Virus record (IMG/VR): IMGVR_UViG_3300023487_000022
Origin: a virus
Lineage: Duplodnaviria > Heunggongvirae > Uroviricota > Caudoviricetes
Length of the DNA stretch: 11,441 nucleotides
Strand: one strand, 5' to 3'
In this document: one piece after another, positions 1-11,441 of the stretch
How the letters are laid out: every line of letters begins with the position of its first letter
How positions within the stretch are numbered: position 1 is the stretch's first letter
Translations under genes and position numbers: made by a program
The notes under the pieces: model-generated
Seen by the model: the letters and a program-made list of their open reading frames with translations, nothing else
Database searches by the model: none
Told to the model about the DNA's origin: nothing

Positions 1-40
1 TGATGTCACGCTGAAAATGCCGGCCTTTGAATGGGTTCAT
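1..40 (-). CDS. tnpA: IS26 transposase, first 13 codons only (cut by window edge)
   Basis: ATG at 40..38 on the minus strand, reading MNPFKGRHFQRDI, 38 bp inside the terminal IR. Confidence 0.85.
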   Translation of the reverse strand, partial: MNPFKGRHFQRDI

Positions 41-103
41 GTGCAGCTCCATCAGTAAAAGGGGATGATAAGTTTATCACCACCGACTATTTGCAACAGT
101 GCC
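1..103 (-). mobile_element. IS26 (IS6 family) terminal 103 bp; the element continues beyond the window start
   Basis: Reverse complement of 90-103 is GGCACTGTTGCAAA, the IS26 terminal inverted repeat. Reverse complement of 1-40 is ATGAACCCATTCAAAGGCCGGCATTTTCAGCGTGACATCA, the start of the IS26 transposase gene. Recognised from memory of the IS26 sequence, not from a search. Confidence 0.88.
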
Positions 104-152
104 CTTTTCTCTCCTGGCCTTCAGCAAGACCCAGCACCAATGAAGTATTCAT
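104..152 (-). pseudogene. 5' fragment of a gene truncated by the IS26 insertion
   Basis: Minus-strand ATG at 152..150 preceded by GGAG 5 nt upstream. It reads MNTSLVLGLAEGQERK and runs straight into the IS26 IR at 103. It sits directly downstream of a copy of the Y-type upstream module, as the intact ORF at 313-642 does. Confidence 0.4.
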
Positions 153-159
153 CACCACT

Positions 160-226
160 CCGTAAACAAATTGTTTTCTCAATGGCGTAAATAATACCAG
201 TGTAAAAACGGCTACAAAGCATATTG
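160..226 (-). promoter_or_regulatory. Y-type conserved upstream module, copy 1, with AAACAAATTGTTTT dyad at 164-177
   Basis: About 80% identical by eye over about 67 bp to 651-717; both copies lie immediately upstream (minus strand) of a start codon. Confidence 0.55.
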
Positions 227-312
227 CTCAGGCACATGAATTATCTAAAGGTGGTTCTTCCCTGCGGCTACAGAGAAGTTAAGCCAGCAGGCGGTGCTGG
301 CTTTGGTTGGGC

Positions 313-642
313 TTACGCGAATAACTCAAGGAATTCCTGCACGTCCCAATGCTGGACAAGGTGAAGATAGAGCTTAGAAATCACGTCATTCTCGCTATCG
401 CATGTGAAGTAGTACTTCTGGCTGCGGTTGTATGTGTCCACACAAAATTCGCTCATATCCATAAAGTCAGCATCTTCACCCATGTCGCAAATAATCAAAG
501 CAGGAGCATCATCACGAGTCATCAGCTCAAGCACCCAGCGCGAATTGATCAGCGTGGAAGACCAACCTTCTAACTCATAAAACTGGTCAAACTCTTTTTG
601 AGTCATTTTCTTGATTTGGTTGATGTCGATATTTGCAAACAT
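313..642 (-). CDS. Hypothetical small acidic protein (109 aa)
   Basis: ORF-track frame 313..708; start chosen at the internal ATG at 642 because AAGGA lies 7 nt upstream. Product MFANIDINQIKK...; by hand count about 21 D/E versus 8 K/R. No family recognised. Confidence 0.65.
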   Translation of the reverse strand: MFANIDINQIKKMTQKEFDQFYELEGWSSTLINSRWVLELMTRDDAPALIICDMGEDADFMDMSEFCVDTYNRSQKYYFTCDSENDVISKLYLHLVQHWDVQEFLELFA

Positions 643-650
643 AAAGCAAT

Positions 651-717
651 CCTTAAACATGTTGTTTTCTGAATTTCGTAAACAATACCAGTAAGAAAAC
701 GGCCACAAAGTATATCG
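651..717 (-). promoter_or_regulatory. Y-type conserved upstream module, copy 2, with AAACATGTTGTTTT dyad at 655-668
   Basis: Direct repeat of 160-226; abuts the RBS and ATG of the 313-642 CDS. Confidence 0.55.
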
Positions 718-781
718 TTACGGTGCTGCGCTGCCCCGGAGGTTAATAGCGACAAAAGCCACCGTGCTGGTGGTCTCACTC

Positions 782-1000
782 TTAATCTTCGTCGTCCGGG
801 AACTCGCTGTGTACCGCGTCCACCAGCTCCCGCTTTTCATCTTCACTAAGCAGGTGCCAGATATCCTTCCCTTTGGGCGATTCCCCTTCTACCGGGACGA
901 ACGACCACAACTTGCGGTACAACTCCGGCCCCACTGCATCCAGACACTCAGCCAGGGAATCCACACCCCACACCTCAACCGTCACAGGCATCTTAATCAT
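782..1000 (-). CDS. Hypothetical small acidic protein (72 aa)
   Basis: ATG at 1000 with GAGGA 7 nt upstream. Product MIKMPVTVEVWGVDSLAECLD...EFPDDED; about 18 D/E versus 7 K/R by hand count. Confidence 0.7.
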   Translation of the reverse strand: MIKMPVTVEVWGVDSLAECLDAVGPELYRKLWSFVPVEGESPKGKDIWHLLSEDEKRELVDAVHSEFPDDED

Positions 1001-1032
1001 CTCTTCATCCTCACTTCGTTTATATAACGTCT

Positions 1033-1088
1033 AAACATGTTGTTTACTTATTGGTGTTATTGTCGCAATAAGACAAAGGAGAAAAAGG
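1033..1088 (-). promoter_or_regulatory. X-type conserved upstream module, copy 1 (AAACATGTTGTTTA dyad 1033-1046; TTATTG-TCG-CAATAA dyad 1057-1071)
   Basis: About 80% identical by eye to 3801-3856; both lie immediately upstream of minus-strand start codons (1000 and 3788). Confidence 0.55.
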
Positions 1089-1387
1089 ATTTTATGTCGT
1101 GAAAGCCAGGCTGGGCAGTGAATATCCGGGAACGACACGGGAACCAGTATTTACGATATTCTGCTCTACGCGCGCCGCAGGGCTGGTGGGCAGAATTTTC
1201 TTCTCCCCGAAAACCTACTGAAATCGCTTGAGACCCGAGGATGGTCTGGCAGAATGGAGTTCAGCAGCTGCACGAGAGGGAACGACACTCCCTCGCGATT
1301 TTCAGGCGAGCGAAGAGCAAGGCGCACTCCCGAAGATTTCCCGCACTGCTCCCGCAGTCGTCCCTCGCTCTGTACCGGGATGTACCC

Positions 1388-1513
1388 GTTTCCCGACCGG
1401 CAGCCAGCCTTTTCCCGGTTCGTATAGCGGGATTCCCACCGTTTCCCTGAAAAACCTCCAGCCTTTTCCCTGCGGCGACGTTCCCGTTCCTGAAAAGGGA
1501 CATGGCTTTTCCC
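1388..1513. repeat. Array of about 7 degenerate direct repeats with TTTCCC core, roughly 21 bp period
   Basis: TTCCC cores at about 1390, 1412, 1433, 1443, 1466, 1481 and 1509. Three copies share AGCCTTTTCCC-G (1407-1418, 1460-1471, 1504-1516). Confidence 0.5.
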
Positions 1514-2588
1514 TGGATGGCTCGAAGGCTGACCGAAGGGGTGGATAGGGACGTTACGGGGGATGAAAACTATGGCTTGAATTTATACGAAGAAAGTGGC
1601 GATACCCCTCCTTCCCTTCCCACTTATACCTCCCACGAATTTTCTCTCTTATGTGGGCATAAACCTTCTCTCTGATAACGCTCAATACGGCGACTATTCC
1701 TGTGGGTGAAATGGGTGGTTTGTTCTTTCTACCGGCATATGTGGTTTCGTTCTTCTTGAGGTGGTTCTTCTCTGTGTTTTCGTCAGGGTTGTTCTCGTTG
1801 TTTTGGTGATTGTTCTTCTCTGTGTATGGAGTAATGGCAGGTGGGCGATTCCTTTCGTTATTGTATTTGAGTTGTTTGTCTTGAGAGCGTGAAAGGCTTT
1901 TGTGGTTATTTGTGTATTGAGTAATGGCGTTTCCCCGCGAATGTTCTGTTTCGTGTCTTTGGGGATTGAGGGAGTCCTTGCGGTAACAGGCTTCGTTAGA
2001 GTTTCAGTGGTTCTGGTGTTTATTCGCTGTTTGGGGAATGGCGTGTAGTGGGTATCGCATGTATGAATGTTTCGAGTTGCCTGTGAAAGTTAGGTTGGTT
2101 GTCCGGTAGCCTGGGAAGAAGAGGTGGGTCTTTTCAGTAGCCTGCCATAAAGAGGTTGGTTGTTTTTGGGAATGTGGGTAATGGCGTCTCTGGGTTTCCT
2201 GTGGGTGTGGTTAGCTTGTTTTCTTGTGTCTGAAAACAACTTGTTTAGATGTCCAATATAACGCAACGGGAGCGCTTCTGAGCGTGTCTGTTTTTGGGTG
2301 GTATCACGAGTCGTTTTTGACGTTTTGGTCGCAGGGAGATGGATTCTGGTACGCTGGATTTGGGTATAAGAGATGGCGTGCGAAAACATCAACTTTTTAG
2401 ACCAAATCAGGGGAAAGCGTTGACTTTACGTTGATGTGTTATTTATTTGTTTTCTTATGGGTGTAATTGGCTTAAATGCCTTGTCACGCCTGGGATTGAG
2501 TGGGGTAGGGTGGTGGGGAAAGTGGCGATCAACGGACTCTTATAGAAATCCTCAATTTGTGACCGCCAATATCAACGAGCTGCAGCCG

Positions 2589-3158
2589 TTAGTTGTTCAG
2601 ATAGGCATCCGGAACGCGCACATAAAAGTTTCTTTCGCCGGTCAGTTCCAGAGTAACGTTTATGTCGTTGCCGTTATCCAGCGTAGCCGTCGCTTTATAG
2701 AACTTGTCCGTCACCTTGTCCTGAATTGTCACCTTCATACATTTCGGCGCTGTGGTTCCGTTATTCTCTTTCAGAATGGTCGTTACGAGAGGACAAGCCG
2801 CTTCTTCAAGAGCAACCTCTTCCTGGTGTGGGATACCGATGAAGATGTTACCAGCAAGCAACGCGACGATTACGATAAAAGGAAGTCGACTGCCTTTTGT
2901 AACGGTGGCACGTTTCCAGAGATAGACCGGAAGGAGAAATACTCCCCACAGGATGGCCGGTGGTTCATACCCTGCATCAGACAATGCCATTCTGTCAGCC
3001 ACCAGAAAGCCGAGTCCAGCGACTCCACCTATCACTATTGCATAATTCAAATACTCATCTGGCGGTGCTCCAAAGAAGAGAGGCAGTAAAGCTAGAAGCC
3101 ACGCATAAGCATTATTCAGAGGTTTTGTTTGTTGGTTCTGGGTTTCCATCACATCCAT
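2589..3158 (-). CDS. Hypothetical membrane protein (189 aa), hydrophobic N-terminal half and soluble C-terminal domain
   Basis: ORF track; hydrophobic stretches (WLLALLPLFF, AIVIGGVAGLGFLV, ILWGVFLLPVYLW, FIVIVALLAGNIFIGI). Start uncertain between ATG 3158 and ATG 3149; RBS weak. The overlapping plus-strand ORF 2436-3089 has a non-protein-like composition. Confidence 0.65.
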   Translation of the reverse strand: MDVMETQNQQTKPLNNAYAWLLALLPLFFGAPPDEYLNYAIVIGGVAGLGFLVADRMALSDAGYEPPAILWGVFLLPVYLWKRATVTKGSRLPFIVIVALLAGNIFIGIPHQEEVALEEAACPLVTTILKENNGTTAPKCMKVTIQDKVTDKFYKATATLDNGNDINVTLELTGERNFYVRVPDAYLNN

Positions 3159-3234
3159 TCCATCAGATTAAAAAGCGGTACTATGTTACCAATTTTCTTC
3201 GCTTATATGACATGATTACTCAACGAGTGGGCGA

Positions 3235-3555
3235 TCACCATTCCCATGCAGGTAGCCCATCCACCAGCTCGGCGTCGCAATCGAAGTGAACCACGTCAAA
3301 GCCGTCATCCAGTATGGTCTGTATGTTGGAGATCGCCTCTTGGGAAATGCCGTACTCACGCAGTTCTTCCTTCCAGTCATTCCCTCGCATTCCAGCACGA
3401 ACAATCCAGCCGTACTGTGTACCGTGTACCCAATTCAACCCGCGATCAGTAAGTGGGTCGAAGCAGGCAATGGGTAGCCGTTCTGAATCCGCTGCCGTTA
3501 CGTGGGCGGTGCTGATCACCGCCGTCTTATACGATTCGGTGATTTTCAGCATCAT
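3235..3555 (-). CDS. Hypothetical acidic protein (106 aa), translationally coupled to the upstream gene
   Basis: ATG at 3555 overlaps the TGA of the 3552-3788 CDS (ATGA overlap); AAGGAG upstream. About 18 D/E versus 8 K/R by hand count. Confidence 0.72.
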   Translation of the reverse strand: MMLKITESYKTAVISTAHVTAADSERLPIACFDPLTDRGLNWVHGTQYGWIVRAGMRGNDWKEELREYGISQEAISNIQTILDDGFDVVHFDCDAELVDGLPAWEW

Positions 3556-3788
3556 GCCTTCTCCTTTGGAAACAGAATGTTGGCCGTGTCAGAAATGACA
3601 TCCCAATTCACGCCGACGCTGGTGTCATGGCACTCTTTGATTTTTCGCAAAACCTGAACGCACTGTTCGTCAGTCAGGTCTGGTCGCACTTCACCTACAT
3701 CTTCCTTGTGCCACATCACCATCAGCAGCGGCTCGTCTTCTGGGTAGTTCTCCAGCTTTTCGATGATGTCTTTTGCGGTTCCGAACAT
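3552..3788 (-). CDS. Hypothetical small acidic protein (78 aa)
   Basis: ATG at 3788 with AAGGAG 6 nt upstream; the track start at 3806 is a TTG that contains this SD. Product MFGTAKDIIEKLENYPEDEPLL... Confidence 0.72.
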   Translation of the reverse strand: MFGTAKDIIEKLENYPEDEPLLMVMWHKEDVGEVRPDLTDEQCVQVLRKIKECHDTSVGVNWDVISDTANILFPKEKA

Positions 3789-3800
3789 GATCAACTCCTT

Positions 3801-3856
3801 AAACAATTTATTTTCTTATTTGTGTTATTATCTCAAATAACAAAAGGTAGAAAACA
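3801..3856 (-). promoter_or_regulatory. X-type conserved upstream module, copy 2 (GTTATT-N6-AATAAC dyad 3824-3841; AAACA/TGTTT-like dyads at 3801-3814 and 3851-3865)
   Basis: Homologous to 1033-1088; lies between the 3874-4140 and 3552-3788 genes. Confidence 0.55.
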
Positions 3857-3873
3857 AAATGTTTAAGGGATGA

Positions 3874-4140
3874 CTAGGTGAGTTTGAAGTCGTCTATGTC
3901 ATCAACAAACTCCATATACCTGGCTTCGACACTCGACAATCTGATCAGATACGCAAGCCCGTAACTTAGTGAAGTGGGTTGCTCCAGCACAAATTCGAAC
4001 CCATCCTCATGCGTTTTACCAAGCCAGAACCCCCCACCGTATTCTTTTTCACGTTGGAAGAAAACGAACTGTCCGGGTATTAGGTGCTTGAGTGCTTCGC
4101 CCCTATAGACGATCACATATTTAGAATTCTTGCTGCCCAT
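3874..4140 (-). CDS. Hypothetical protein (88 aa)
   Basis: ORF-track frame 3874..4197; start chosen at ATG 4140 because GAGG lies 6 nt upstream, while the ATG at 4197 has no SD. Confidence 0.6.
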   Translation of the reverse strand: MGSKNSKYVIVYRGEALKHLIPGQFVFFQREKEYGGGFWLGKTHEDGFEFVLEQPTSLSYGLAYLIRLSSVEARYMEFVDDIDDFKLT

Positions 4141-4228
4141 TGCTCGCCTCGCAATACTGTACATATAAACAGTATTATTTATTACGGTACTGGTCAACTT
4201 TACGGGTTAATTGAATAACAAGATGGTG

Positions 4229-4243
4229 AAAACAATTTGTTTT
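4229..4243. promoter_or_regulatory. Perfect 15 bp palindrome AAAACAATTTGTTTT in a divergent promoter region; candidate operator
   Basis: Seven-base arms around a central T, between the minus-strand start at 4140 and the plus-strand start at 4328; the strongest copy of the recurring AAACA-N-TGTTT dyad. Confidence 0.5.
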
Positions 4244-4327
4244 GGCACTTGAGATTTTGCAAATCGCACCTACATGGAAAACGGCAATTTTTGAAACCTG
4301 ATTTGACCCATGTGAAAGGAGGAAACG

Positions 4328-4531
4328 ATGAAGACCTATGATCGCAACCGTAACGCTATCACTACCGGCAGCCGAGTGATGGTGGCAACGAATGGTGCAA
4401 CGGGAGTCATCAAGGAAATCTGCGGAGAAGGCAAATCAGAAGAACAATTACGCCGCTCTGACTGCGTGTCTATCGAAGGTGTGGAAGGTCTATTCTGCCC
4501 AATGGATTTGGTTCGCCTGGGGTTCCATTAA
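4328..4531 (+). CDS. Hypothetical small protein (67 aa); candidate regulator
   Basis: ATG at 4328 with AGGAGG SD 5 nt upstream. It is the only plus-strand gene in the island and is transcribed divergently from the palindrome at 4229-4243. Confidence 0.72.
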   Translation: MKTYDRNRNAITTGSRVMVATNGATGVIKEICGEGKSEEQLRRSDCVSIEGVEGLFCPMDLVRLGFH

Positions 4532-4558
4532 TTTCACCATCTATAAAACAAATTGTTT

Positions 4559-4579
4559 AAGGCCACAACTAGTGGCCTT
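4559..4579. terminator. GC-rich inverted repeat AAGGCCAC-AACTA-GTGGCCTT between convergent genes; possible bidirectional terminator
   Basis: 8 bp stem, 5 nt loop. The T-rich tract on the minus-strand side is offset by about 6 nt, so terminator function is uncertain. Confidence 0.4.
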
Positions 4580-4586
4580 ATCTGGC

Positions 4587-5285
4587 TTACGGAACAGCGG
4601 TAATCAGATCGCAAATGCCTGTTTTAGTTAAATCACTATTCAGCTTCTGAAAATTGGCATTCAGCATTGCGGTATGTATTCGATTCTCAAGTTCAAAGAA
4701 GAGACCGATCTTGCCCTCTTTGGCTGCCACCTTCTTCCAAATATTCACCTGGTCATCTGCGATACGACTTGCGCAGGTGAACAAGAACGAACTCCCTCTG
4801 GGAAGGGATGTCGTGCTGTAGTATTCACCGTCAACTTCAATATACTTAGCTCGGAATGACTCCAGAGTTAGCTTTTTACCGCTCTCAGCCTGCTTTGTGT
4901 CTGCCTTGCTTGTCTTTTCCTGAACTTCAGGCTGTTTCTGCACAGGCTTTGGTGTCTCATTGACCACCGCAGTGCTGGCCGAACCATCCAAACTCTTGAG
5001 GCCATTAATTTGGATTAGATAAGCCAACTCCAGAGCCTTATCACCAGTGAGTTTTCCACGCATACTTACCCATTGACGCTGAACCGTCTTTAAGGCGTCT
5101 GCGTCCCCCGGGTTTGCTTTGAGTGCGTTGGAATAGGTAGAGCTAAGTTGTTCGTCTAATTTTGACAGGCGTTCGTTATCGCAGATTTTGTGTTCGATTT
5201 CTGCCGAAGCCTTTTGGCAGTCAAAGCTGGCTGCAAATACAGCCGGCGATGCCACCAACAATGATGCCAGTAGGATATTTTTCAT
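4587..5285 (-). CDS. Secreted protein with DUF1311 (LprI-like) N-terminal domain (232 aa)
   Basis: ATG at 5285 with GGAG upstream. Signal peptide MKNILLASLLVASPAVFA with an AXA-type cleavage site, followed by the Cys/Leu pattern FDCQKASAEIEHKICDNERLSKLDEQLSSTYSNALKA...QRQWVSMRG, which matches DUF1311 from memory. C-terminal domain unassigned. Confidence 0.78.
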   Translation of the reverse strand: MKNILLASLLVASPAVFAASFDCQKASAEIEHKICDNERLSKLDEQLSSTYSNALKANPGDADALKTVQRQWVSMRGKLTGDKALELAYLIQINGLKSLDGSASTAVVNETPKPVQKQPEVQEKTSKADTKQAESGKKLTLESFRAKYIEVDGEYYSTTSLPRGSSFLFTCASRIADDQVNIWKKVAAKEGKIGLFFELENRIHTAMLNANFQKLNSDLTKTGICDLITAVP

Positions 5286-5323
5286 ATTCACTCCATAAAT
5301 ATAAAAGCGCCTGACTATAGCAC

Positions 5324-5539
5324 TTAACCAATTGCTTCTCTCATCTGATTGTGAAGCTCTTTCAGCCCATCACGTACCGCGTTCATGATACGTTCCAGGG
5401 ATTGGTATCTGGGGTTTGGCACTGTTGGCCAACCGGCATACCACGGATCGTCACCAAACAGACTCAGCAGTTCGTTACCGACACCGAAACAGCAGCAACT
5501 TTCTTTTACGTCATCAGCGTTTTCTGCCTCGTCCCACAT
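5324..5539 (-). CDS. Hypothetical protein (71 aa), possibly the C-terminal remnant of a longer disrupted gene
   Basis: ORF track; in the same frame as 5774-6505 but separated from it by stops. The frame is open upstream of the ATG as far as 5626. Confidence 0.4.
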   Translation of the reverse strand: MWDEAENADDVKESCCCFGVGNELLSLFGDDPWYAGWPTVPNPRYQSLERIMNAVRDGLKELHNQMREAIG

Positions 5540-5773
5540 ATTGCGGGCCTGCTCTGCGTCGATTTCTCTCTCTCCCTGCGCAACTTTATGATTTCGGATT
5601 TGACGAAAAGCAGGTTTGCGTCGTTGTCATCGTCGACCGTACTGAAGTGGCACACTGAATTTGGCCGTCTGTAATGGGCAGATCCGGCAACTGTTTAAAA
5701 ACATCCATCTGCTCATGGATACGCAGAAACCACCTTGCCAGCTCCATCTGCTCACCGCGGGTGAGGAGATTAT

Positions 5774-6505
5774 TCAGCGGGGACTTAACAAAAGCGGAGA
5801 CTCGCTCGACAAGCCGGCCAGTGAACCAACATCCCCCCAATTCTGGTGTGTCAGCGCCCCGATACTTACCACTCCAGGCAGCACTTCTTTGTGGTTGTGG
5901 TAGTGCCCGGACAACAATAAACGGAAGCCGATATCTTTCAGTTCCTGTGCGTCGATGCCGACATCGGGCATGGTGGGGATCGCTTTGTTGATTGAGGTAT
6001 GTACAACAACATCATGGTTGTCACCATCCAGCCCGGAACGCAGCGTTTTGAGATCGCTGATAAGTTCTGCGTAGTTATTACGCCAGCTAATCAGATGGAC
6101 GGTTACGTCGCCCATTTTGATGGAATGAGGACGTTTGCCGCAGACGATTTCCACACCGATTGAGCGCAGAGAGGCTGCTGCATTGGCGCTGTATACGGAA
6201 TCGTTGGTTTCGAGGTCGTGGTTGCCAGCCAGCATTACCACCTTGAGACCCAACTCTTTGATGATCCACTCGTAAGTTTCGGTCACGAAATGCAGAACGG
6301 AAGGTGATATAGCACCGCGAACATGGAAGGTATCACCAGCTACCAGCATGTTCTTACAGCCAGCAGCTTTCATCGCTTTGGCCGCCTCCTTCGTAGCGTC
6401 CAGTTGGATCTCCAGCCGAGAGTTAAGCCCGTCAGCGTTTGTTGTCGCAAAAGCATCCCAACGATGATAATGGGGATCTGATATTACCCCGTATGGCAAT
6501 GTCAT
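5774..6505 (-). CDS. Calcineurin-like metallophosphoesterase (243 aa)
   Basis: ATG at 6505 with AAGGA upstream. Ordered motifs ISDPHYH, GDTFHVRG, GNHD and GHYHNH match the metallophosphatase signature (D-x-H, GD-x-x-D/H-R-G, GNH[DE], GH-x-H). Confidence 0.75.
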   Translation of the reverse strand: MTLPYGVISDPHYHRWDAFATTNADGLNSRLEIQLDATKEAAKAMKAAGCKNMLVAGDTFHVRGAISPSVLHFVTETYEWIIKELGLKVVMLAGNHDLETNDSVYSANAAASLRSIGVEIVCGKRPHSIKMGDVTVHLISWRNNYAELISDLKTLRSGLDGDNHDVVVHTSINKAIPTMPDVGIDAQELKDIGFRLLLSGHYHNHKEVLPGVVSIGALTHQNWGDVGSLAGLSSESPLLLSPR

Positions 6506-6848
6506 GTGTCTTTTCCTTTGTGGTTATTTTGATACAAATTCTAAGCGTGCATAAGAGGCGTACAACCCAGACAACACGGCACACAAAAGAATATAAAGGC
6601 ACATGATAATAACAAAAAAATAAGTAAGTAAATACCTATCAGATAGGGCAGCAACGATTTCTAAACGTCACAAGCAATTTTATGAGAGCAGTCATTTACT
6701 GATGACAAGAAATGAAAAAGGAGAACGGACGGTGAAGTTGTGAGATGACATTTACGGCGTTTGCGTGCGTCGTCTTCAAACGCATCCGTCGGCCACAGTT
6801 TCTGCTCTTGAATAAAATTCACTCATGCATTAATCCCTAAAGCTCTCA

Positions 6849-6875
6849 GTGTCTTTCTAAGACACCATATTTTAT
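6849..6875 (+). terminator. Hairpin GTGTCTT-TCT-AAGACAC followed by CATATTTTAT; candidate plus-strand rho-independent terminator
   Basis: Perfect 7 bp stem, 3 nt loop, T-rich tail on the plus strand only; lies just after a 31-codon plus-strand ORF (6745-6840). Confidence 0.45.
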
Positions 6876-6901
6876 GCCCGGTAAAAAGCATGAGTTTGCC
6901 T

Positions 6902-7546
6902 TTAAAACGTCTCTGAGGGCTTCTGACGCGCTCTGCTAATGTCTATTACCCCAGCTTTTGGACGAGGGTCTACAAGATTCAACTCTTCAGCACTGTGATA
7001 CTCCGTGTCGAACTCCCGATCGACATGGCGAATGTAAATGGCTGTCAGAAGGCTGTTATCATTCAGAAAGTGTCCGTAAGATTTGCGAATTACTTCGCCA
7101 ACCTTCTCAATCTTCTCTCCGCCCATGCAGAGATGGTTAAATCGGCTGTGTTTCCGCAGCATTTCATCCACCGGGCCTGAGTAGACCTTATCAACTCTCC
7201 CGAACCGGATGATATTTCCGGTATCAGCTTCAACCAGACAAACGAGTTTGCCAGGTTCGACACGATCTCGCCAAGTGACACCAGAGCGCAGTGTGTTGAA
7301 GTAGGGAGCATCCAATCCGATGATCGGTTTACGAAATGCTAGTAGTGGCACGTAACGTATGCAGCTGTTTAGGTGGAAATGCGCACCGGCGTCGTGGAGT
7401 TTAAGCCGGGTTTCGTTAATCGGGCATTTCGAAGCAATGCCGCAAAGGTCGCAGAGCAACTTCTGTTTGTTCAGACTAGTGTTTGATTCAATGGTGTAGG
7501 AGCCATCTTCAAGACGGCGAACCCAGCGCGTGCGTTTAAGATCCAT
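6902..7546 (-). CDS. Hypothetical protein (214 aa) with a CDLCGIASKC Cys cluster
   Basis: ORF track, ATG at 7546, weak RBS. No family recognised. Confidence 0.6.
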   Translation of the reverse strand: MDLKRTRWVRRLEDGSYTIESNTSLNKQKLLCDLCGIASKCPINETRLKLHDAGAHFHLNSCIRYVPLLAFRKPIIGLDAPYFNTLRSGVTWRDRVEPGKLVCLVEADTGNIIRFGRVDKVYSGPVDEMLRKHSRFNHLCMGGEKIEKVGEVIRKSYGHFLNDNSLLTAIYIRHVDREFDTEYHSAEELNLVDPRPKAGVIDISRARQKPSETF

Positions 7547-7645
7547 AATTCTTGTTCAAATAATTTTGTCCGGGGCAACGATAACGGATAAGGCGCACCG
7601 GAGTTTGCAAATGCCTGTTTACTTATTCACTTTATTCACAGGCCC

Positions 7646-7703
7646 GATCCAATATTTAGATCCCCAGAGAGATCCTACAGAAGATCAAAAGAGATCCCCG
7701 ATC
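7646..7703. promoter_or_regulatory. GATC (Dam site) cluster, 6 sites in 58 bp; origin-like element
   Basis: GATC at 7646, 7659, 7671, 7683, 7693 and 7700, next to an AT-rich segment and just upstream of iteron cluster 1; this resembles the arrangement at P1-type origins. Confidence 0.5.
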
Positions 7704-7744
7704 GTCTCCAGCGCTTGCGGTTACTGGCTTGAGAAGGGGTTACT

Positions 7745-7846
7745 ATCCACTATAGGGAGCAAAATAACCACTGTAGAGAGCATAATAACCGCTATGAAGA
7801 GCAAAACAACCTCTCTGGAGAGTAGTCGGTATCCACTGTAGTGAGT
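7745..7846 (+). repeat. Iteron cluster 1: 5 direct repeats, about 21 bp spacing, core A(A/T)CCACT(A/G)TAG(A/T)GAG
   Basis: Copies at 7745-7760, 7766-7781, 7787-7802, 7808-7823 (degenerate) and 7831-7846. Confidence 0.8.
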
Positions 7847-8127
7847 AGGAGACAATGTTTTAACTGGATAACTCCGAGCCTGTTTTTCTGCGGCAGATGG
7901 CTGATATTCTTGGAAATATTGTAAATTTTGCGTTGCGGCGTGTTTATTTCGATCACACATTATCCCCAGAAGGGGAGTGATGCCTGATTTTGTAATTATC
8001 TGATTTTTATACACAGGCCCGATCCAGTAATTCAGATCCCTGTTAGAACCAAAGAGAACCACAAAGACCCAAAGAGATCCCCGGCCCTTGCAAACCGTTG
8101 TGCCACATGGCTTTAGAGGTTATCGAT

Positions 8128-8249
8128 ATCCACTATAGTGAGAAGAACAACCACTATAGAGAGTAAATCAACCACTATGGAGAGTAGAAAAACCGCTGTA
8201 GGCGGTAGGATAACCACTGTGATGGGTGCTACTATCCACTGTAATCAGT
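8128..8249 (+). repeat. Iteron cluster 2: 6 direct repeats at 21-22 bp spacing, immediately upstream of repA
   Basis: Copies at 8128-8143, 8149-8164, 8170-8185, 8191-8206, 8212-8227 and 8234-8249. Confidence 0.82.
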
Positions 8250-8288
8250 AAAGGCACCCAAGCCGTCGAATAAAAAGAGACATTTGGA

Positions 8289-9344
8289 ATGAGCGTAAAC
8301 GACAATAAAAACATTGCGATAAGCGAAGCATTTTCCGAAACAGACAAAAAGACCGGCGAAGTTGTTACGTTAGTTCCTAACACCAACAACACAGTTCAGC
8401 CTGTTGCTCTGATGCGTCTTGGTCTCTTCGTTCCGACGCTGAAATCGACATCCAGGGGTAGAAAGGGGCAAATGGTCTCTATGGACGCCTCCGCTGAACT
8501 CAAACAGCTGTCTCTGGCCAAAGCCGAAGGGTACGAGGATATAAGGATTGCTGGTCTTCGTCTTGATATGGATAACGATTTCAAAACATGGGTGGGCATC
8601 ATCCACGCGTTCGCCAAGCACAAGGTTGTTGGTGACACCGTCACGTTGCCGTTCGTCGAGTTCGTCAGACTTTGTGGCATACCAACAGCCAGATCGTCCG
8701 CGAAGTTACGTAAGCGCCTGGACAGCTCTCTAAGTCGTATCGCCACAAACACCATCTCATTCCGCAGCAAAGGCTCTGAAGAGTATTACGTTACGCACCT
8801 TGTGCAGACGGCAAAGTACAGTACCAAGAATGACACGGTCGAACTGAAGGCCGATCCTAAGATTTTCGAACTTTACCAGTTCGACAAAAAGGTGCTTTTG
8901 CAACTTCGGGCCATCAACGAACTCTCCAGAAAGGAATCCGCGCAGGCGCTCTACACCTTCATTGAAAGTTTGCCACCAGACCCGGCGCCAATCTCATTGG
9001 CTCGCTTACGCGCCAGACTTAACTTAACCAGCCGCACCATTACCCAGAATGCGACAGTCAGGAAGGCGATGGAGCAGCTGCGAGAGATCGGCTATCTCGA
9101 TTACACTGAAGTGAAACGCGGCAGCTCGGTCTACTTCGTCATCCACTATAGACGGCCGAAGTTACGTTCGGCACTGCCGCCATCTATGGCTACGCCTGAA
9201 GAGCCAGAAGATATCTTGCCAGGTGATGATCCGGAGGACATTATCGATGTTGCCCCTGAAGAAAAAGACGGGGAAATGGTCATGTTGAGCAAGGAAGAAC
9301 TGGCGATTCTCGAAGAGCTGCGCAAGGCAAAGGCTCGCAAATAG
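8289..9344 (+). CDS. repA: Iteron-binding replication initiator RepA, RepFIB/P1 RepA family (351 aa)
   Basis: Product contains [57 protein letters not shown] and [10 protein letters not shown], which I recognise as conserved in P1 RepA and RepFIB RepA. Flanked on both sides by iterons. Confidence 0.9.
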
Positions 9345-9347
9345 CCC

Positions 9348-9947
9348 AACCACTGTAGAGAGTAAAAAGGCTCACTATCTACTGTAGTGAGCCTTTTTGT
9401 TTATCGGAAATGCAATATCCACTGTAGTGAGTAAAAGAAACCGAAGAATAACCACTGTAGGCAGTGCGCACAAATCGCGAAGTAAATGTTAGTGGTTGCA
9501 AACATAGATAAAACAAGGGCTGAGAGGTTAGCGGTCACTGGGTATCTCTGTTAAGTCTACTCTCTACAGCGGTTATCGTCGCTCTCCTCATTGTTGACTA
9601 TCCACTGTGAAGAGCAGAATTGGCTGACTTGACCTCTATCCACTGTAGTGAGTGGATATCCGTTTAAAACAGCGAAGATTTACTCTCCATAGTGGATATC
9701 CGCTGGAGGGGGCATTCCATCACTCTCTATAGTGGTTGTTTGTAGTCAGTGAACGCCTGTTTACTCACTACAGTGTATAGCGACCCCGATAATCACCAAT
9801 TTACTCACTACAGTGGATAGTTGATATCGTGGCAGAGGGTTTGCTCACTACAGTGGTTGGGGTGCATACCTGAAGGGTGTTCTACTCGCTACAGTGGTTA
9901 TGAGCCGGATTCACACGCGGTGAGCTGGCTACTCACCGCAGTGGATA
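9348..9947. repeat. Downstream iteron array, about 14 copies in both orientations (incA-like)
   Basis: Direct copies at 9348-9363, 9378-9393, 9417-9432, 9450-9465, 9598-9615 and 9638-9653; inverted copies at 9559-9576, 9682-9701, 9721-9738, 9763-9780, 9803-9820, 9843-9860, 9884-9901 and 9930-9947. Confidence 0.8.
9369..9402 (+). terminator. repA rho-independent terminator: GGCTCACTA-TCTACTG-TAGTGAGCC then TTTTTGTTT
   Basis: 9 bp stem beginning 25 nt after the repA stop, followed by a T-run; the stem is built from iteron-like sequence. Confidence 0.6.
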
Positions 9948-9953
9948 GTGTTA

Positions 9954-10166
9954 TCAGTGGATTTTCTTCAGCAGACCCCAGAGTGTCCCGGCCTTCGTTG
10001 CGAGCTTACCTGTTTCCGGATCGTACATGTGCCATTCACGTCGCTGGTGGACAATATACCCATCTTCACGTTCCAGTCGTTCCAGTACGCCGGACTGCTT
10101 GAACCCTTTGGCACGCCAGTAGCCGCTTGTTTTTTCGATTTCCAGACCTGTCAGTGTAACCGCCAT
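9954..10166 (-). CDS. Hypothetical small protein (70 aa), translationally coupled
   Basis: ATG at 10166..10164 overlaps the TGA of the upstream gene (TGATG); the track start at 10169 is a TTG. Product MAVTLTGLEIEKTSGYWRAKGF... Confidence 0.62.
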   Translation of the reverse strand: MAVTLTGLEIEKTSGYWRAKGFKQSGVLERLEREDGYIVHQRREWHMYDPETGKLATKAGTLWGLLKKIH

Positions 10167-10501
10167 CAACTAATCTCCTTGCAGTCATCGAAAAGGTAGC
10201 TGTCGTTCTTCGCGTGAACGCCGTATACATCACCCGATTTGTTGTAAACGAATCTATCTTTACCTACGCCAGATAGTTCGCCGTTACGTTTAGTGAGAAA
10301 CGGGGAAGACAGGACGCGATCATCGCGTACCACATAAAACTGTTCGCCACGGTCCACAACCATCGCGCCGTAATTAGCTTTAACGACGTTGCGGATCAGG
10401 CCGTTTTTCGCTTCGACCACAAACATTTCGCACTCATAGACATGTGTGTCCGCAAAGACGGGGAGAGTGAGCAGCGCCAGTACCAGGGCTGTTTTCTTCA
10501 T
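10166..10501 (-). CDS. Hypothetical exported protein with Sec signal peptide (111 aa)
   Basis: MKKTALVLALLTLPVFA then DTHVYEC, consistent with an AXA cleavage site. ATG at 10501 overlaps the stop of the upstream small ORF (ATGA). Confidence 0.65.
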   Translation of the reverse strand: MKKTALVLALLTLPVFADTHVYECEMFVVEAKNGLIRNVVKANYGAMVVDRGEQFYVVRDDRVLSSPFLTKRNGELSGVGKDRFVYNKSGDVYGVHAKNDSYLFDDCKEIS

Positions 10502-10677
10502 GCCACGACTCCTTTGAAAACGCCTAATGCTGAGTCGAAGACCAGTACTACGGCCAGCGCATTGATCATCACATCATTAACAGGCGCCAGCGCTTTACGG
10601 ATTGCCCCTGTGAAGATGCAGTCGAGCACAAAGGCTATCGAGATAATAAGTAACGTGATATCTAATAAAATTTTCAT
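10498..10677 (-). CDS. Candidate small hydrophobic peptide (59 aa), not in the supplied ORF track
   Basis: ATG at 10677, reading MKILLDITLLIISIAFVLDCIFTGAIRKALAPVNDVMINALAVVLVFDSALGVFKGVVA. Its stop overlaps the start of the 111 aa gene. RBS is weak, and a plus-strand ORF (10442-10693) overlaps it. Confidence 0.4.
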   Translation of the reverse strand: MKILLDITLLIISIAFVLDCIFTGAIRKALAPVNDVMINALAVVLVFDSALGVFKGVVA

Positions 10678-10716
10678 GATAGGTAAATGCTAACTTATAT
10701 ATTTTTGCTGTAAATA

Positions 10717-10992
10717 TCACTCAAAAGTGCTGATACCCAAAATGCGCTCAAGATGGGCCGCGTCTTCATCGCTTACCAGCATTGTGTCGTCGACGTACCA
10801 GCAGCTACCGTTGTGCCAACAAACACCGTCATCATCGATATAAATAGAATCCGCATCCATTCCTGTGTATTCAACTAGATTGCGTTCAATTGCCGCTTGA
10901 ATTTCTTCATCGTTCAGCCCGTCGCACTTGATCATGAACAACGGGTAAACGTCATAGTCGGTACTAGATGAAATGCGAACCAAAGTCTTCAT
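10717..10992 (-). CDS. Hypothetical small, very acidic protein (91 aa)
   Basis: ORF-track frame 10717..11055; start chosen at ATG 10992 with AAGGAG 7 nt upstream. About 20 D/E versus 5 K/R by hand count. Confidence 0.62.
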   Translation of the reverse strand: MKTLVRISSSTDYDVYPLFMIKCDGLNDEEIQAAIERNLVEYTGMDADSIYIDDDGVCWHNGSCWYVDDTMLVSDEDAAHLERILGISTFE

Positions 10993-11172
10993 GTGCTTTC
11001 TCCTTGTTGGTAAGTACTTATCTATCTTAATGCGCGCTATAAGGCGCACAATCATTGTGTTCAGGCTGGTGGAAAGAACTTCTCCAGCGTGTGGTTGATA
11101 GCCTTATCAATGTGCATCAGGTGCCAGACGACCATATCTTTGCTTCCAATGCCGCGAGTGTAGATGAAGTGG

Positions 11173-11389
11173 TCAACAAAAACTGGCCACCGAGTTAGAT
11201 TTTTTCCAGTATCGATTTTCCGATTCATTTGGGGGTAATCCACCGTTATATTCGTGCGGTCTTAGTGCGCTGTAATATCCAACGATATAGTCCGTTATGG
11301 CGTGAGCTGCCTCGCTGAAGCTTACGTAACCCACCACCGGCATCCATTCGTTCTTCAGACTCCTGAAGAAGCGTTCCATTGGGCTGTTG
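11173..11389 (-). pseudogene. C-terminal fragment of an IS3-family transposase (OrfB tail), truncated upstream
   Basis: Reads ...SVNSPMERFFRSLKNEW...YYSALRPHEYNGGLPPNESE, resembling the conserved IS3-family DDE-domain tail (DNAxxESFFxxLKxE ... RxHxxLGxxxPxEFE). An in-frame stop at 11390-11392 sits just upstream of the conserved motif, and no other frame continues the homology. Confidence 0.55.
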
Positions 11390-11441
11390 ACGCTCCTATG
11401 TCAAGAGCGGGCGATTGGCATATGTGAGATCTGATAAAATC

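What the first reader, a model, noticed from the sequence alone, without database searches (positions are those of the whole stretch)
164..4559. Recurring dyad AAACA-N3/4-TGTTT at eight intergenic positions, confined to the left 4.6 kb
Copies at 164-177, 655-668, 1033-1046, 2233-2247, 3801-3814 (degenerate), 3851-3865, 4229-4243 (perfect 7-1-7 palindrome) and 4545-4559. All are intergenic and most lie within 50 bp of a start codon. The only copy in the right 7 kb is one inverted-orientation TGTTT-AAACA inside coding sequence around 5691-5702. This looks like the operator set of one regulon controlled by a dimeric DNA-binding protein. I cannot match it to a known regulator consensus (not LexA, CRP, Fur or FNR).
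Basis: seen in the sequence. Interest (0 to 1): 0.7.

Follow-up and report, generated by a model that had tools for sequence, protein, structure and literature searches.

The report
Operator dyads of SSU5-type phage-plasmids
The repeated 13-base palindrome AAACAAnTTGTTT is real and sits at fixed positions in a conserved promoter cassette of SSU5-family phage-plasmids (relatives of pHCM2 and pMT1), so it most likely marks the operators of one element-encoded repressor, whose identity I could not establish.

Summary
The window has seven exact AAACA-N3-TGTTT copies and one one-mismatch copy, against 0.03 expected, and all are intergenic.

The window is not an ordinary plasmid backbone. It is a decayed, IS26-bounded piece of an SSU5-family phage-plasmid. 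Its left 5.7 kb corresponds to the SSU5 small-gene region at 85-93 kb.

The same dyad, usually a perfect 6-1-6 palindrome, is the commonest palindrome in every family genome examined: 10-14 copies each, and 14 of 14 intergenic in SSU5. It occupies two fixed positions in a conserved extended -10 promoter cassette, centred near +14 or near -38. Neighbouring copies lie exactly 25 or 51 bp apart. The central base is free, no compensatory changes occur, and the RNA hairpin is negligible (-0.7 kcal/mol).

Best reading: DNA operators of a symmetric, element-encoded repressor that silences about 15-25 promoters. The binder is unidentified. The small protein encoded after parA is the best candidate. 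The "confinement to the left 4.6 kb" comes from a deletion junction at about 5813.

No description of the motif was found in the searchable literature. It is a new member of a known kind, of moderate interest.

The parts
164..176 (.). Class-A dyad AAACAAATTGTTT. Downstream (+14) type for the minus-strand ORF starting at 152, an SSU5_113/CYRAN_106 homologue cut by IS26 at 103.
   Evidence: The orthologous sites are SSU5 92759 and Cyrano 96286.
191..199 (-). Extended -10 element TGGTATTAT, 14 nt upstream of dyad 164 on the minus strand.
655..667 (.). Class-A dyad AAACATGTTGTTT, +14 type, 12 nt before the ATG (642) of ORF 313-642(-), a CYRAN_105 homologue.
   Evidence: The orthologous site is Cyrano 95801.
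682..690 (-). Extended -10 element TGGTATTGT for the promoter of ORF 313-642(-).
1033..1045 (.). Class-A dyad AAACATGTTGTTT, +14 type, 32 nt before the ATG (1000) of ORF 782-1000(-), an SSU5_112 homologue.
1059..1067 (-). Extended -10 element TGCGACAAT, 13 nt upstream of dyad 1033.
2234..2246 (.). Class-A dyad AAACAACTTGTTT, 8 nt downstream (minus strand) of the TTATATT -10-like element at 2255-2261. It faces the 1.1-kb region at 1100-2230, which has no long ORF.
   Evidence: The orthologous sites are SSU5 90740, Cyrano 94605 and pJN2-26 25869.
3801..3813 (.). Class-A dyad with one mismatch (minus strand AAATAAATTGTTT), +14 type, 12 nt before the ATG (3788) of the DUF1380/DUF5983 operon 3235-3788(-).
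   Evidence: The orthologous site is SSU5 88370.
3827..3835 (-). Extended -10 element TGAGATAAT, lying between the two dyads of this promoter.
3852..3864 (.). Class-A dyad AAACAAAATGTTT, upstream (about -38) type for the same promoter. Its centre is 51 bp from the centre of dyad 3801.
   Evidence: The orthologous site is SSU5 88319.
4230..4242 (.). Class-A dyad AAACAATTTGTTT (7-1-7 over 4229-4243). It lies in the divergent region between ydfZ (+, ATG 4328) and ORF 3874-4140(-), 11 nt after the TGAATAAC -10-like element at 4212-4219 (+).
   Evidence: The orthologous site is SSU5 87941.
4546..4558 (.). Class-A dyad AAACAAATTGTTT between the convergent ydfZ and LprI-family genes. It abuts the hairpin AAGGCCAC-N4-GTGGCCTT (4559-4580) and has no recognisable promoter.
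   Evidence: The orthologous site is SSU5 87625. The same hairpin-plus-dyad arrangement recurs at SSU5 85602, where a promoter follows.
3235..3788 (-). Regulated genes: DUF1380-like (3552-3788) and DUF5983 (3235-3555).
4328..4531 (+). ydfZ-family gene. It is probably a regulated gene, not the regulator.

Best explanation
The dyads are DNA operators of a single symmetric (dimeric or tetrameric) repressor encoded by SSU5-family phage-plasmids.

They are built into a conserved sigma-70 'extended -10' promoter cassette: gCCTTTTc-N10-TGnGATAAT-aacaccaacaAGA-AAACAAnTTGTTT-A(A)GGAG-ATG.

A copy centred near +14 would block RNA polymerase after binding or at promoter clearance. A copy centred near -38 would occlude the upstream half of the promoter. 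Promoters that carry both copies, 51 bp apart (about 5 helical turns), could be clamped cooperatively.

In intact elements the regulon covers about 15-25 promoters: the block of small genes at 80-95 kb in SSU5 coordinates, plus parA, dnaB, cobT-like, nrdB, a methyltransferase and the terS-led structural operon. The protein would therefore keep most lytic and accessory transcription units quiet in the plasmid-prophage state and/or shut off early genes during infection.

Shown:
- the motif, its enrichment and its positions;
- its restriction to this family;
- its conservation across lineages.

Inferred:
- that the -10 elements are functional promoters;
- that the sites are protein-bound;
- that binding represses.

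The binder is not identified. My best candidate, at roughly 30%, is the 119-aa protein encoded directly after the type-Ib parA (SSU5_034 extended = CYRAN_29). On that reading the dyads would act like the omega and KorB systems, as combined partition and silencing sites.
For: Enrichment:
- 7 exact copies in the window against 0.03 expected.
- SSU5 has 14 exact copies, all in the 11.6% of the genome that is intergenic, where base composition predicts 0.02.

Family-wide and family-specific:
- It is the top palindrome in SSU5, Cyrano, Klebsiella pJN2-26 and two divergent Klebsiella plasmids, with 10-14 copies each.
- Among 120 viral-contig loci holding the 17-mer, the 73 SSU5-like loci carry 173 dyads. 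The 47 unrelated loci carry essentially one each.

Fixed architecture:
- 45 oriented sites give the consensus tAaTtAcac.aataAGA-AAACAAnTTGTTT-Aa.
- The four minus-strand window promoters have TGGTATTAT, TGGTATTGT, TGCGACAAT and TGAGATAAT 13-14 nt before the dyad.
- Neighbouring dyads are only ever 25 bp (4 cases) or 51 bp (6 cases) apart.

DNA rather than RNA:
- 53 of 65 sites are perfect 6-1-6 palindromes with an unconstrained centre (G25, T14, C14, A12), which cannot form a hairpin with a 1-nt loop.
- Compensatory double changes: 0, against 6 non-compensatory.
- The predicted RNA hairpin is only -0.7 kcal/mol.
- In the L134 lineage several promoters keep only the upstream, untranscribed dyad, and the +14 position is reduced to AGAAAACAA or to the SD.

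Consistent with repression: in the LF82(Cyrano) lysogen, genes behind these dyads are at background (5-13, against a median of 9.8) (PMC9928086 S1 table).

For the ParA-partner candidate:
- The dyad block CATAAGAAAACAAnTTGTTT is the only conserved element in the parA promoter across lineages.
- The partner's segment I(K/Q)SRTMS(L/I/M)EDE...TRSDVIRAAI is invariant wherever the dyad exists.
- In the one lineage that lacks the dyad (Moellerella) it reads SRTVS, and only the left half-site survives.
- It is at least 90% identical in 736 of 797 plasmids, more conserved than the FljA-like or CI-like proteins.
- The parA operon is expressed in the lysogen at 50-89.
- The closest plasmid to the window keeps this gene.
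Against: - There is no experimental binding, TSS or reporter data.
- The simple -35/-10 scan finds no promoter at the dyads, so promoter calls rest on my alignment of TGn/-10 elements.
- Most phage genes are silent in the lysogen anyway, so the expression data do not discriminate.
- Site 4546 has no promoter, and site 2234 faces non-coding DNA.

Against the ParA-partner idea specifically:
- The ribbon-helix-helix reading is my own inspection of the sequence. The only Pfam support is a sub-threshold RHH_1 hit (E=0.035) for the Moellerella homologue, and 12 family members show no hit.
- hhalign against ParG and omega is negative.
- The AF2 monomer is of low confidence (pLDDT 64), shows no strand, and Foldseek finds nothing.
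- Known type-Ib centromeres are tandem arrays, not single dyads.
- pMT1 lacks this protein yet keeps the dyads. Its divergence is probably too recent for decay, which I infer rather than show.
Confidence: 0.68

Rival explanations
1. RNA-level control. The dyad acts in the 5' leader, right next to the Shine-Dalgarno sequence, as the binding site of the family's FljA-like protein (Pfam Flag1_repress, with a weak Hfq/Sm-like C-terminal signal). That protein would repress translation of many early mRNAs, in the way Salmonella FljA is reported to act on the fliC leader.
For: - An FljA-family protein is a core gene of the family: E=3e-81 in SSU5, present in 12 of 12 related phage records and 835 plasmids.
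- Its C-terminus gives weak Hfq and LSM hits (also in the very divergent Moellerella homologue).
- FljA is described as preventing fliC mRNA translation (PMC2652032).
- +14-type dyads abut the SD in many units, e.g. TTGTTTAAGGAG.
- The Salmonella fliC leader, verified from published primers, contains CAAGTTGT, the dyad core.
- The gene is modestly expressed in the Cyrano lysogen (18, against a background of 9.8).
- The one lineage without dyads has a barely recognisable FljA-like protein.
Against: - Upstream-type dyads (about -38) are not in the leader of the gene they precede, and some promoters have only that copy.
- The hairpin is negligible, positions 6 and 8 are conserved as a 6-1-6 palindrome, and there are no compensatory changes.
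- The dyad is invariant while the protein falls to 32% identity between SSU5 and the L134 lineage.
- There is no dyad near its own gene.
- The E. coli K-12 fliC leader lacks the motif.
- The plasmid closest to the window has lost the gene but keeps the dyads.
Confidence: 0.1
2. The sites are operators as in the best explanation, but the binder is another element protein or a host factor. Element candidates: the 88-aa winged-helix-like SSU5_130/CYRAN_123, a ParB-like protein (SSU5_125/126), or the XRE-type CI-like repressor next to the integrase. A host factor would be one conserved in Enterobacteriaceae.
For: - SSU5_130 is 75% identical between SSU5 and the L134 lineage, and the ParB-like proteins are 67-69% identical.
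- All are present in the plasmid closest to the window.
- The CI-like repressor is expressed in the lysogen at 96 and has nearly the same distribution as the family.
- The dyad's invariance across Escherichia, Salmonella, Klebsiella and Yersinia elements would also fit a conserved host protein.
Against: - SSU5_130 is at background in the lysogen (7.8) and persists at 61% identity in the Moellerella element that lacks dyads, as do both ParB-like proteins.
- The CI-like gene carries the other dyad (GGTAAGTnCTTACC) in its own upstream region, not this one. Moellerella keeps the CI-like protein and TAAGT-type half-sites but no class-A dyads.
- The small wHTH-like SSU5_046 is missing in the L143 lineage, which has dyads.
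- No E. coli regulator consensus that I tested or recall fits (plus my own knowledge), and the motif is multi-copy only in this family.
Confidence: 0.3
3. The dyad is a positive promoter element. It would be the binding site of an activator, or a recognition element for a phage-modified RNA polymerase, needed to fire promoters that lack a -35 hexamer.
For: - The promoters have no -35 consensus.
- The upstream copy, at about -38 to -40, is near the position used by class II activators (established knowledge).
- A conserved CCTTTT box sits where a MotA-type box would.
Against: - Most copies are centred at about +14, a position known for repressors, not activators.
- TGn extended -10 elements can work without a -35 (established knowledge).
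- Dyad genes are silent in the lysogen, although that fits either model.
Confidence: 0.1
4. There is no function of its own. The dyad would just be a passenger within a promoter cassette that spread by duplication.
For: The flanks (AGA, -10, CCTTTT) are also similar between copies, which suggests common ancestry of the cassettes.
Against: - Spacer positions and the central base have diverged freely while 12 dyad positions stay fixed. This holds across lineages whose surrounding DNA is about 72% identical and whose proteins are 30-70% identical.
- The dyad occurs at two different cassette positions and also without a cassette (site 4546).
Confidence: 0.03

Closest known systems
Phage P1 C1 repressor and its dispersed operators
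   Same: P1 is also a plasmid prophage, with one repressor and many operators scattered over about 100 kb. Each operator overlaps the promoter of a separate operon, some occur as paired sites, and induction runs through antirepressors. This is my own knowledge of P1. The dispersed, promoter-linked distribution here is shown.
   Different: C1 operators are asymmetric 17-mers (ATTGCTCTAATAAATTT). The only match in the window has 3 mismatches and lies elsewhere. No C1 homologue was seen. The sites here are perfect palindromes.
KorB and its OB operators of IncP plasmid RK2
   Same: OB is a 13-bp 6-1-6 palindrome present in about a dozen copies on one replicon. Some copies lie about 39-40 bp upstream of transcription starts. 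The binder is a partition (ParB-family) protein that doubles as a global repressor (my knowledge). The site geometry and copy number here are the same.
   Different: The sequence differs: TTTAGCSGCTAAA is absent. Most sites here are at +14. No evidence links the family's ParB-like proteins to the dyad, and both persist in the dyad-free Moellerella element.
Omega (pSM19035) and ParG (TP228): small partners of type-Ib ParA
   Same: A small protein encoded after a short ParA binds upstream of parA, autoregulates the operon and, for omega, represses several other promoters (my knowledge). Here a dyad sits in the parA promoter in every dyad-bearing lineage, and the partner's putative DNA-reading segment is invariant with it.
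   Different: Those proteins bind tandem arrays of 7-bp or 4-bp repeats, whereas the sites here are single or paired 13-bp palindromes. The ribbon-helix-helix fold of the SSU5 protein is not confirmed.
N15 SopB with dispersed centromere sites
   Same: N15 is a phage-plasmid whose partition sites are spread through the genome near phage promoters and affect their expression (my knowledge).
   Different: N15 has four 16-bp sites bound by a large type-Ia SopB. No sequence or protein similarity was found here.
FljA repression of the fliC leader in Salmonella
   Same: The family encodes an FljA homologue. The Salmonella fliC leader shares CAAGTTGT with the dyad.
   Different: FljA acts on one mRNA. 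The dyads here include untranscribed positions, and the E. coli fliC leader lacks the motif.

Membership tests
LexA (SOS) box | CTGT-N8-ACAG with an AT-rich spacer | tested here: not met
   None of the dyads fits. The only match in the window is a separate site at 4155-4174.
KdgR box | AAACA-N1-TGTTT core (one-base spacer; consensus recalled from memory) | tested here: not met
   No AAACANTGTTT in the window. The dyads have a three-base spacer.
CRP, FNR, Fur and NrdR sites | Their consensus palindromes | tested here: not met
   No hits at the dyads with 1-5 mismatches allowed.
RK2 KorB operator (OB) | Sequence TTTAGCSGCTAAA | tested here: not met
   No match with up to 2 mismatches.
RK2 KorB operator (OB) | 13-bp 6-1-6 palindrome, about a dozen dispersed copies near promoters | tested here: met
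   53 of 65 sites are perfect 6-1-6 palindromes. There are 10-14 copies per genome, all intergenic in SSU5.
RK2 KorB operator (OB) | Bound by a ParB-family protein | not testable with these tools
   ParB_N proteins exist in the family, but they persist in the dyad-free Moellerella element.
P1 C1 operator | Asymmetric 17-mer ATTGCTCTAATAAATTT | tested here: not met
   One 3-mismatch hit at 6676, away from the dyads.
Chromosomal parS | TGTTNCACGTGAAACA | tested here: not met
   No match with up to 3 mismatches. The half-site order is inverted in the dyads.
Type-Ib partition operator/centromere (ParG or omega type) | Conserved site in the parA promoter | tested here: met
   The block CATAAGAAAACAAnTTGTTT is the only invariant stretch in parA upstream regions of five dyad-bearing elements.
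Type-Ib partition operator/centromere (ParG or omega type) | The partner protein is a ribbon-helix-helix dimer | tested here: inconclusive
   The sequence pattern is suggestive. The only Pfam RHH_1 hit is sub-threshold in one homologue and absent in 12 others. hhalign, AF2 and Foldseek are uninformative.
Type-Ib partition operator/centromere (ParG or omega type) | Tandem array of at least 4 short repeats | tested here: not met
   Sites are single, or paired at 25 or 51 bp.
FljA target (fliC leader) | An FljA-family protein is encoded by the element | tested here: met
   PF03614 E=3e-81 in SSU5, and a core gene in the family. It is absent from the plasmid closest to the window.
FljA target (fliC leader) | Site lies in the transcribed leader and shares the motif of fliC leaders | tested here: inconclusive
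   CAAGTTGT is shared with the Salmonella leader but not with E. coli K-12. Upstream-type dyads are outside the leader.
Structured RNA element or intrinsic terminator | Stable stem-loop, covariation, or a curated family match | tested here: not met
   -0.7 kcal/mol. No compensatory pairs. No Rfam hit in the window.

The most novel reading that the evidence does not exclude
The FljA-like protein belongs to a family known only as a translational repressor of one flagellin mRNA, and carries a weak Hfq/Sm-like signature. On this reading it is the master regulator of the dyad regulon in SSU5-type phage-plasmids. It would recognise AAACAAnTTGTTT (as DNA, as leader RNA, or both) and so control some 20 transcription units of elements that include pHCM2 of S. 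Typhi and pMT1 of Y. pestis.
Probability: 0.1. Interest if true: 0.8.

Novelty: new member of a known kind. Interest (0 to 1): 0.5.

Why it matters
SSU5-type phage-plasmids are common in clinical Escherichia, Klebsiella, Salmonella and Enterobacter. About 800 records in the plasmid collection carry the family's core genes. The family includes pHCM2 and the backbone of pMT1, and its members carry resistance genes, as the relative of this window does.

I found no description of how they control lysogeny, and the exact motif strings occur in no paper of the searchable library.

A defined 13-bp operator present at about 15-25 promoters gives:
- a ready map of one regulon;
- a bait for identifying the repressor;
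- a handle for predicting which remnants in resistance plasmids are still regulated;
- together with the LexA box and the second dyad class noted in passing, the outline of a multi-layer switch that can be tested directly.

Tried and rejected
- YdfZ as regulator: rejected. It is a Pfam YdfZ protein with no DNA-binding signature and sits behind a dyad.
- SSU5_116 'repressor-like' protein: rejected. It has no counterpart in Cyrano, where the flanking dyad promoters are conserved.
- CI-like XRE repressor as the binder: unlikely. Its own upstream region carries the other dyad (GGTAAGTnCTTACC) and no class-A copy, and it persists in the dyad-free Moellerella element.
- wHTH-like SSU5_046: unlikely. 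It is absent from the L143 lineage, which has dyads.
- pMT1 as a natural test of the ParA-partner idea: uninformative. pMT1 lacks the protein and keeps the dyads, but its divergence is probably too recent for decay.
- A truncated homologue of the ParA partner in a 262-kb Klebsiella plasmid: unusable, because it is cut by IS5.
- Wider homologue search for the ParA partner: only 25 clusters, all from SSU5-like contigs, so there was no independent replicon to test.
- Structure route for that protein: low-confidence AF2 model, no Foldseek match, no PDB sequence match, and hhalign against ParG and omega negative.
- Scan of viral contigs for the 17-mer: it only separated SSU5-like loci (multi-copy) from chance single hits, and revealed no second family.
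- The key FljA papers (J Bacteriol 2003 and 2006) are not held, and a 2026 preprint on an SSU5-related heteroresistance mechanism could not be opened.
- The generic -35/-10 scan finds nothing at the dyads.
- Rfam finds nothing in the window.

Full report
**What the window is.** Bases 1-103 are the end of IS26 (terminal repeat GGCACTGTTGCAAA at 90-103). The rest is a fragment of an SSU5-family phage-plasmid.
- The left part (104-5813) matches Salmonella phage SSU5 at 86% identity over SSU5 85-93 kb, in reverse orientation.
- The right part (5813-11165) matches the SSU5 57-64 kb region, which holds RepA and its iterons.
- The two parts are joined at about 5813 by a deletion that truncates the metallophosphoesterase gene.
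- The closest complete record is E. coli plasmid p1585m1_B. It is a mosaic of a decayed SSU5-like element, IncF replicons and a multiresistance region.

**The observation.**
- AAACA-N3-TGTTT occurs exactly seven times, against 0.03 expected.
- 3801-3813 is a one-mismatch copy in the same context.
- All eight copies are intergenic.
- Looser matches are not enriched.

**It is a family-wide, family-specific motif.**
- SSU5 has 14 exact copies. All lie in the 11.6% of the genome that is not annotated as coding, where base composition predicts 0.02.
- Cyrano has 11 copies and Klebsiella phage pJN2-26 has 14. Two plasmids of a more distant Klebsiella lineage have 10-11 copies in 40 kb each. In every case AAACA/AACAA is by far the commonest palindrome arm.
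- In the IMG/VR scan, 73 SSU5-like loci carried 173 dyads, while 47 unrelated loci carried essentially the single chance match.
- In intact genomes the dyad precedes terS, parA, dnaB, a cobT-like gene, nrdB, a large methyltransferase, ant and a run of small genes.

**Anatomy.** Oriented by the downstream gene, 45 sites give the consensus ...c.Tttt.....t.g...tAaTtAcac.aataAGA-AAACAAnTTGTTT-Aa.
- In the window the four minus-strand units have TGGTATTAT, TGGTATTGT, TGCGACAAT and TGAGATAAT, which are extended -10 elements. They lie 13-14 nt before the dyad.
- If transcription starts about 7 nt after the hexamer (inference), the dyad spans about +8 to +20.
- A second class of copies lies upstream of the same cassette (dyad-tctaCCTTTTc-N10-TGnGATAAT), centred at about -38. 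These often follow the hairpin of the preceding gene directly.
- Neighbouring copies are only ever 25 or 51 bp apart. The window pair 3852/3801 is a 51-bp pair.
- The flanks are asymmetric (AGA ... AAGG), and upstream copies are inverted relative to downstream ones.

**DNA or RNA?**
- 53 of 65 exact sites are perfect 6-1-6 palindromes with a free central base. Positions 6 and 8 would be loop residues in any feasible hairpin, yet they are conserved.
- No compensatory double substitutions occur.
- The hairpin is worth only -0.7 kcal/mol.
- In the distant Klebsiella lineage several promoters keep only the untranscribed upstream copy.
- This favours symmetric protein-DNA recognition. The positions +14 and -38 are classical for repression, and +14 in particular does not fit an activator.
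- Genes behind the dyads are at background in the published LF82(Cyrano) lysogen transcriptome. So are most phage genes, so this is weak support.

**Who binds? I could not settle this.**
- *YdfZ (4328-4531)* has no support.
- *FljA-like protein.* The family encodes an FljA-family protein with weak Hfq/LSM similarity. The Salmonella fliC leader shares CAAGTTGT with the dyad. Against it: the E. coli leader does not share the motif, the protein drops to 32% identity in a lineage with unchanged dyads, no dyad lies near its gene, and the plasmid closest to the window has lost it.
- *CI-like XRE repressor next to the integrase.* It is expressed in lysogens and is absent from the lytic isolate SSU5 itself. 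However, it carries a different dyad, GGTAAGTnCTTACC, in front of its own gene.
- *The 119-aa protein encoded after the type-Ib parA.* This candidate fits best. A dyad is the only conserved element of the parA promoter across lineages. The protein's I(K/Q)SRTMS-EDE...TRSDVIRAAI segment is invariant wherever dyads exist. That segment is altered (SRTVS) in the Moellerella element, which has lost the dyads and keeps only a left half-site at parA. The protein is at least 90% identical in most family plasmids, and its operon is expressed in the lysogen.
- *Caveat on that candidate.* My reading of it as ribbon-helix-helix is not confirmed by Pfam, hhalign, AF2 or Foldseek. Single dyads also differ from the tandem arrays of known type-Ib centromeres.

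**Comparison with known systems.** In logic this resembles P1 C1 with its dispersed operators. In geometry it resembles the 13-bp KorB operators of RK2. If the ParA partner is the binder, it resembles omega of pSM19035. The defining sequences of all these, and of LexA, CRP, FNR, Fur, KdgR, NrdR and parS, are not met. The motif strings occur in no paper of the searchable library, and I found nothing on regulation of SSU5-type elements.

**Verdict.** The feature is real and strongly non-random. It is most likely the operator set of one element-encoded repressor, making it a new member of a familiar kind of system. Its value lies in making the unknown lysogeny circuit of a clinically widespread phage-plasmid family directly testable.

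Noticed in passing
window 4155-4174: A near-consensus LexA (SOS) box, TACTGTACATATAAACAGTA. It lies between a TTGACC-N17 promoter and the ATG (4140, minus strand) of the 88-aa ORF 3874-4140 (SSU5_103 homologue). It is conserved at the same gene in SSU5 and pJN2-26. Other LexA boxes precede the integrase gene in Cyrano, pJN2-26 and L136. This is a candidate SOS-controlled antirepressor, which would fit the ciprofloxacin induction reported for Cyrano.
   Followed up: partly
window 11011-11020; SSU5 9068, 15590, 21938, 38179, 41774, 45125, 55700, 67780, 72362, 78714: A second dyad family, TAAGTA(N0-6)TACTTA / GGTAAGTACTTACC, sits in the same kind of promoter cassette in front of other genes. In the window it lies about 20 nt before the ATG of ORF 10720-10992(-). 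One copy lies just upstream of the CI-like XRE repressor gene in Cyrano, pJN2-26 and p1585m1_B, so it is probably that repressor's operator.
   Followed up: partly
window ~5813: A deletion junction fuses a truncated metallophosphoesterase gene (SSU5_073 residues 1-231) to a fragment of SSU5_097. About 21 kb of the ancestral genome is missing. The two halves of the window occur separately in other plasmids.
   Followed up: partly
window 1100-2230: About 1.1 kb with no long ORF, G+T-rich on the + strand, with loose 24-36-nt repeats. On the minus strand it lies downstream of dyad 2234 and a TTATATT element. It is conserved in SSU5, Cyrano and pJN2-26, has no Rfam match, and is unexplained.
   Followed up: partly
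window 1-103 and 11170-11441: An IS26 end on the left cuts the SSU5_113 homologue 49 nt after its start. An IS3-family fragment lies on the right. In the closest plasmid, IS26 has replaced the segment that in SSU5 carries genes 114-122, including the FljA-like gene.
   Followed up: partly
window 7747-7822, 8130-8201, 9350-9950: Arrays of 21-bp iterons (CCACTATAGAGAG...) flank repA (8289-9344), which is 92% identical to the SSU5 replication protein.
   Followed up: no
L002 33481; L004 3286 running into L002 1; L006 28132; L009 24892: A large palindrome of about 60 bp (CCTGCTTCcGTATATATAAATAcTAAGTnACTTAtTATTTATATACgGAAGCAGG) is present in 2-3 copies per SSU5-family genome, one of them next to the terS dyads. 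It could be a centromere, an origin or a packaging-related site. It is not in the window.
   Followed up: no
L140 14446-14871: The Moellerella wisconsensis SSU5-like plasmid has no class-A dyads. It has a barely recognisable FljA-family protein (PF03614 E=3e-8) and an altered ParA-partner segment, which makes it a useful outgroup for working out who binds the dyad.
   Followed up: partly
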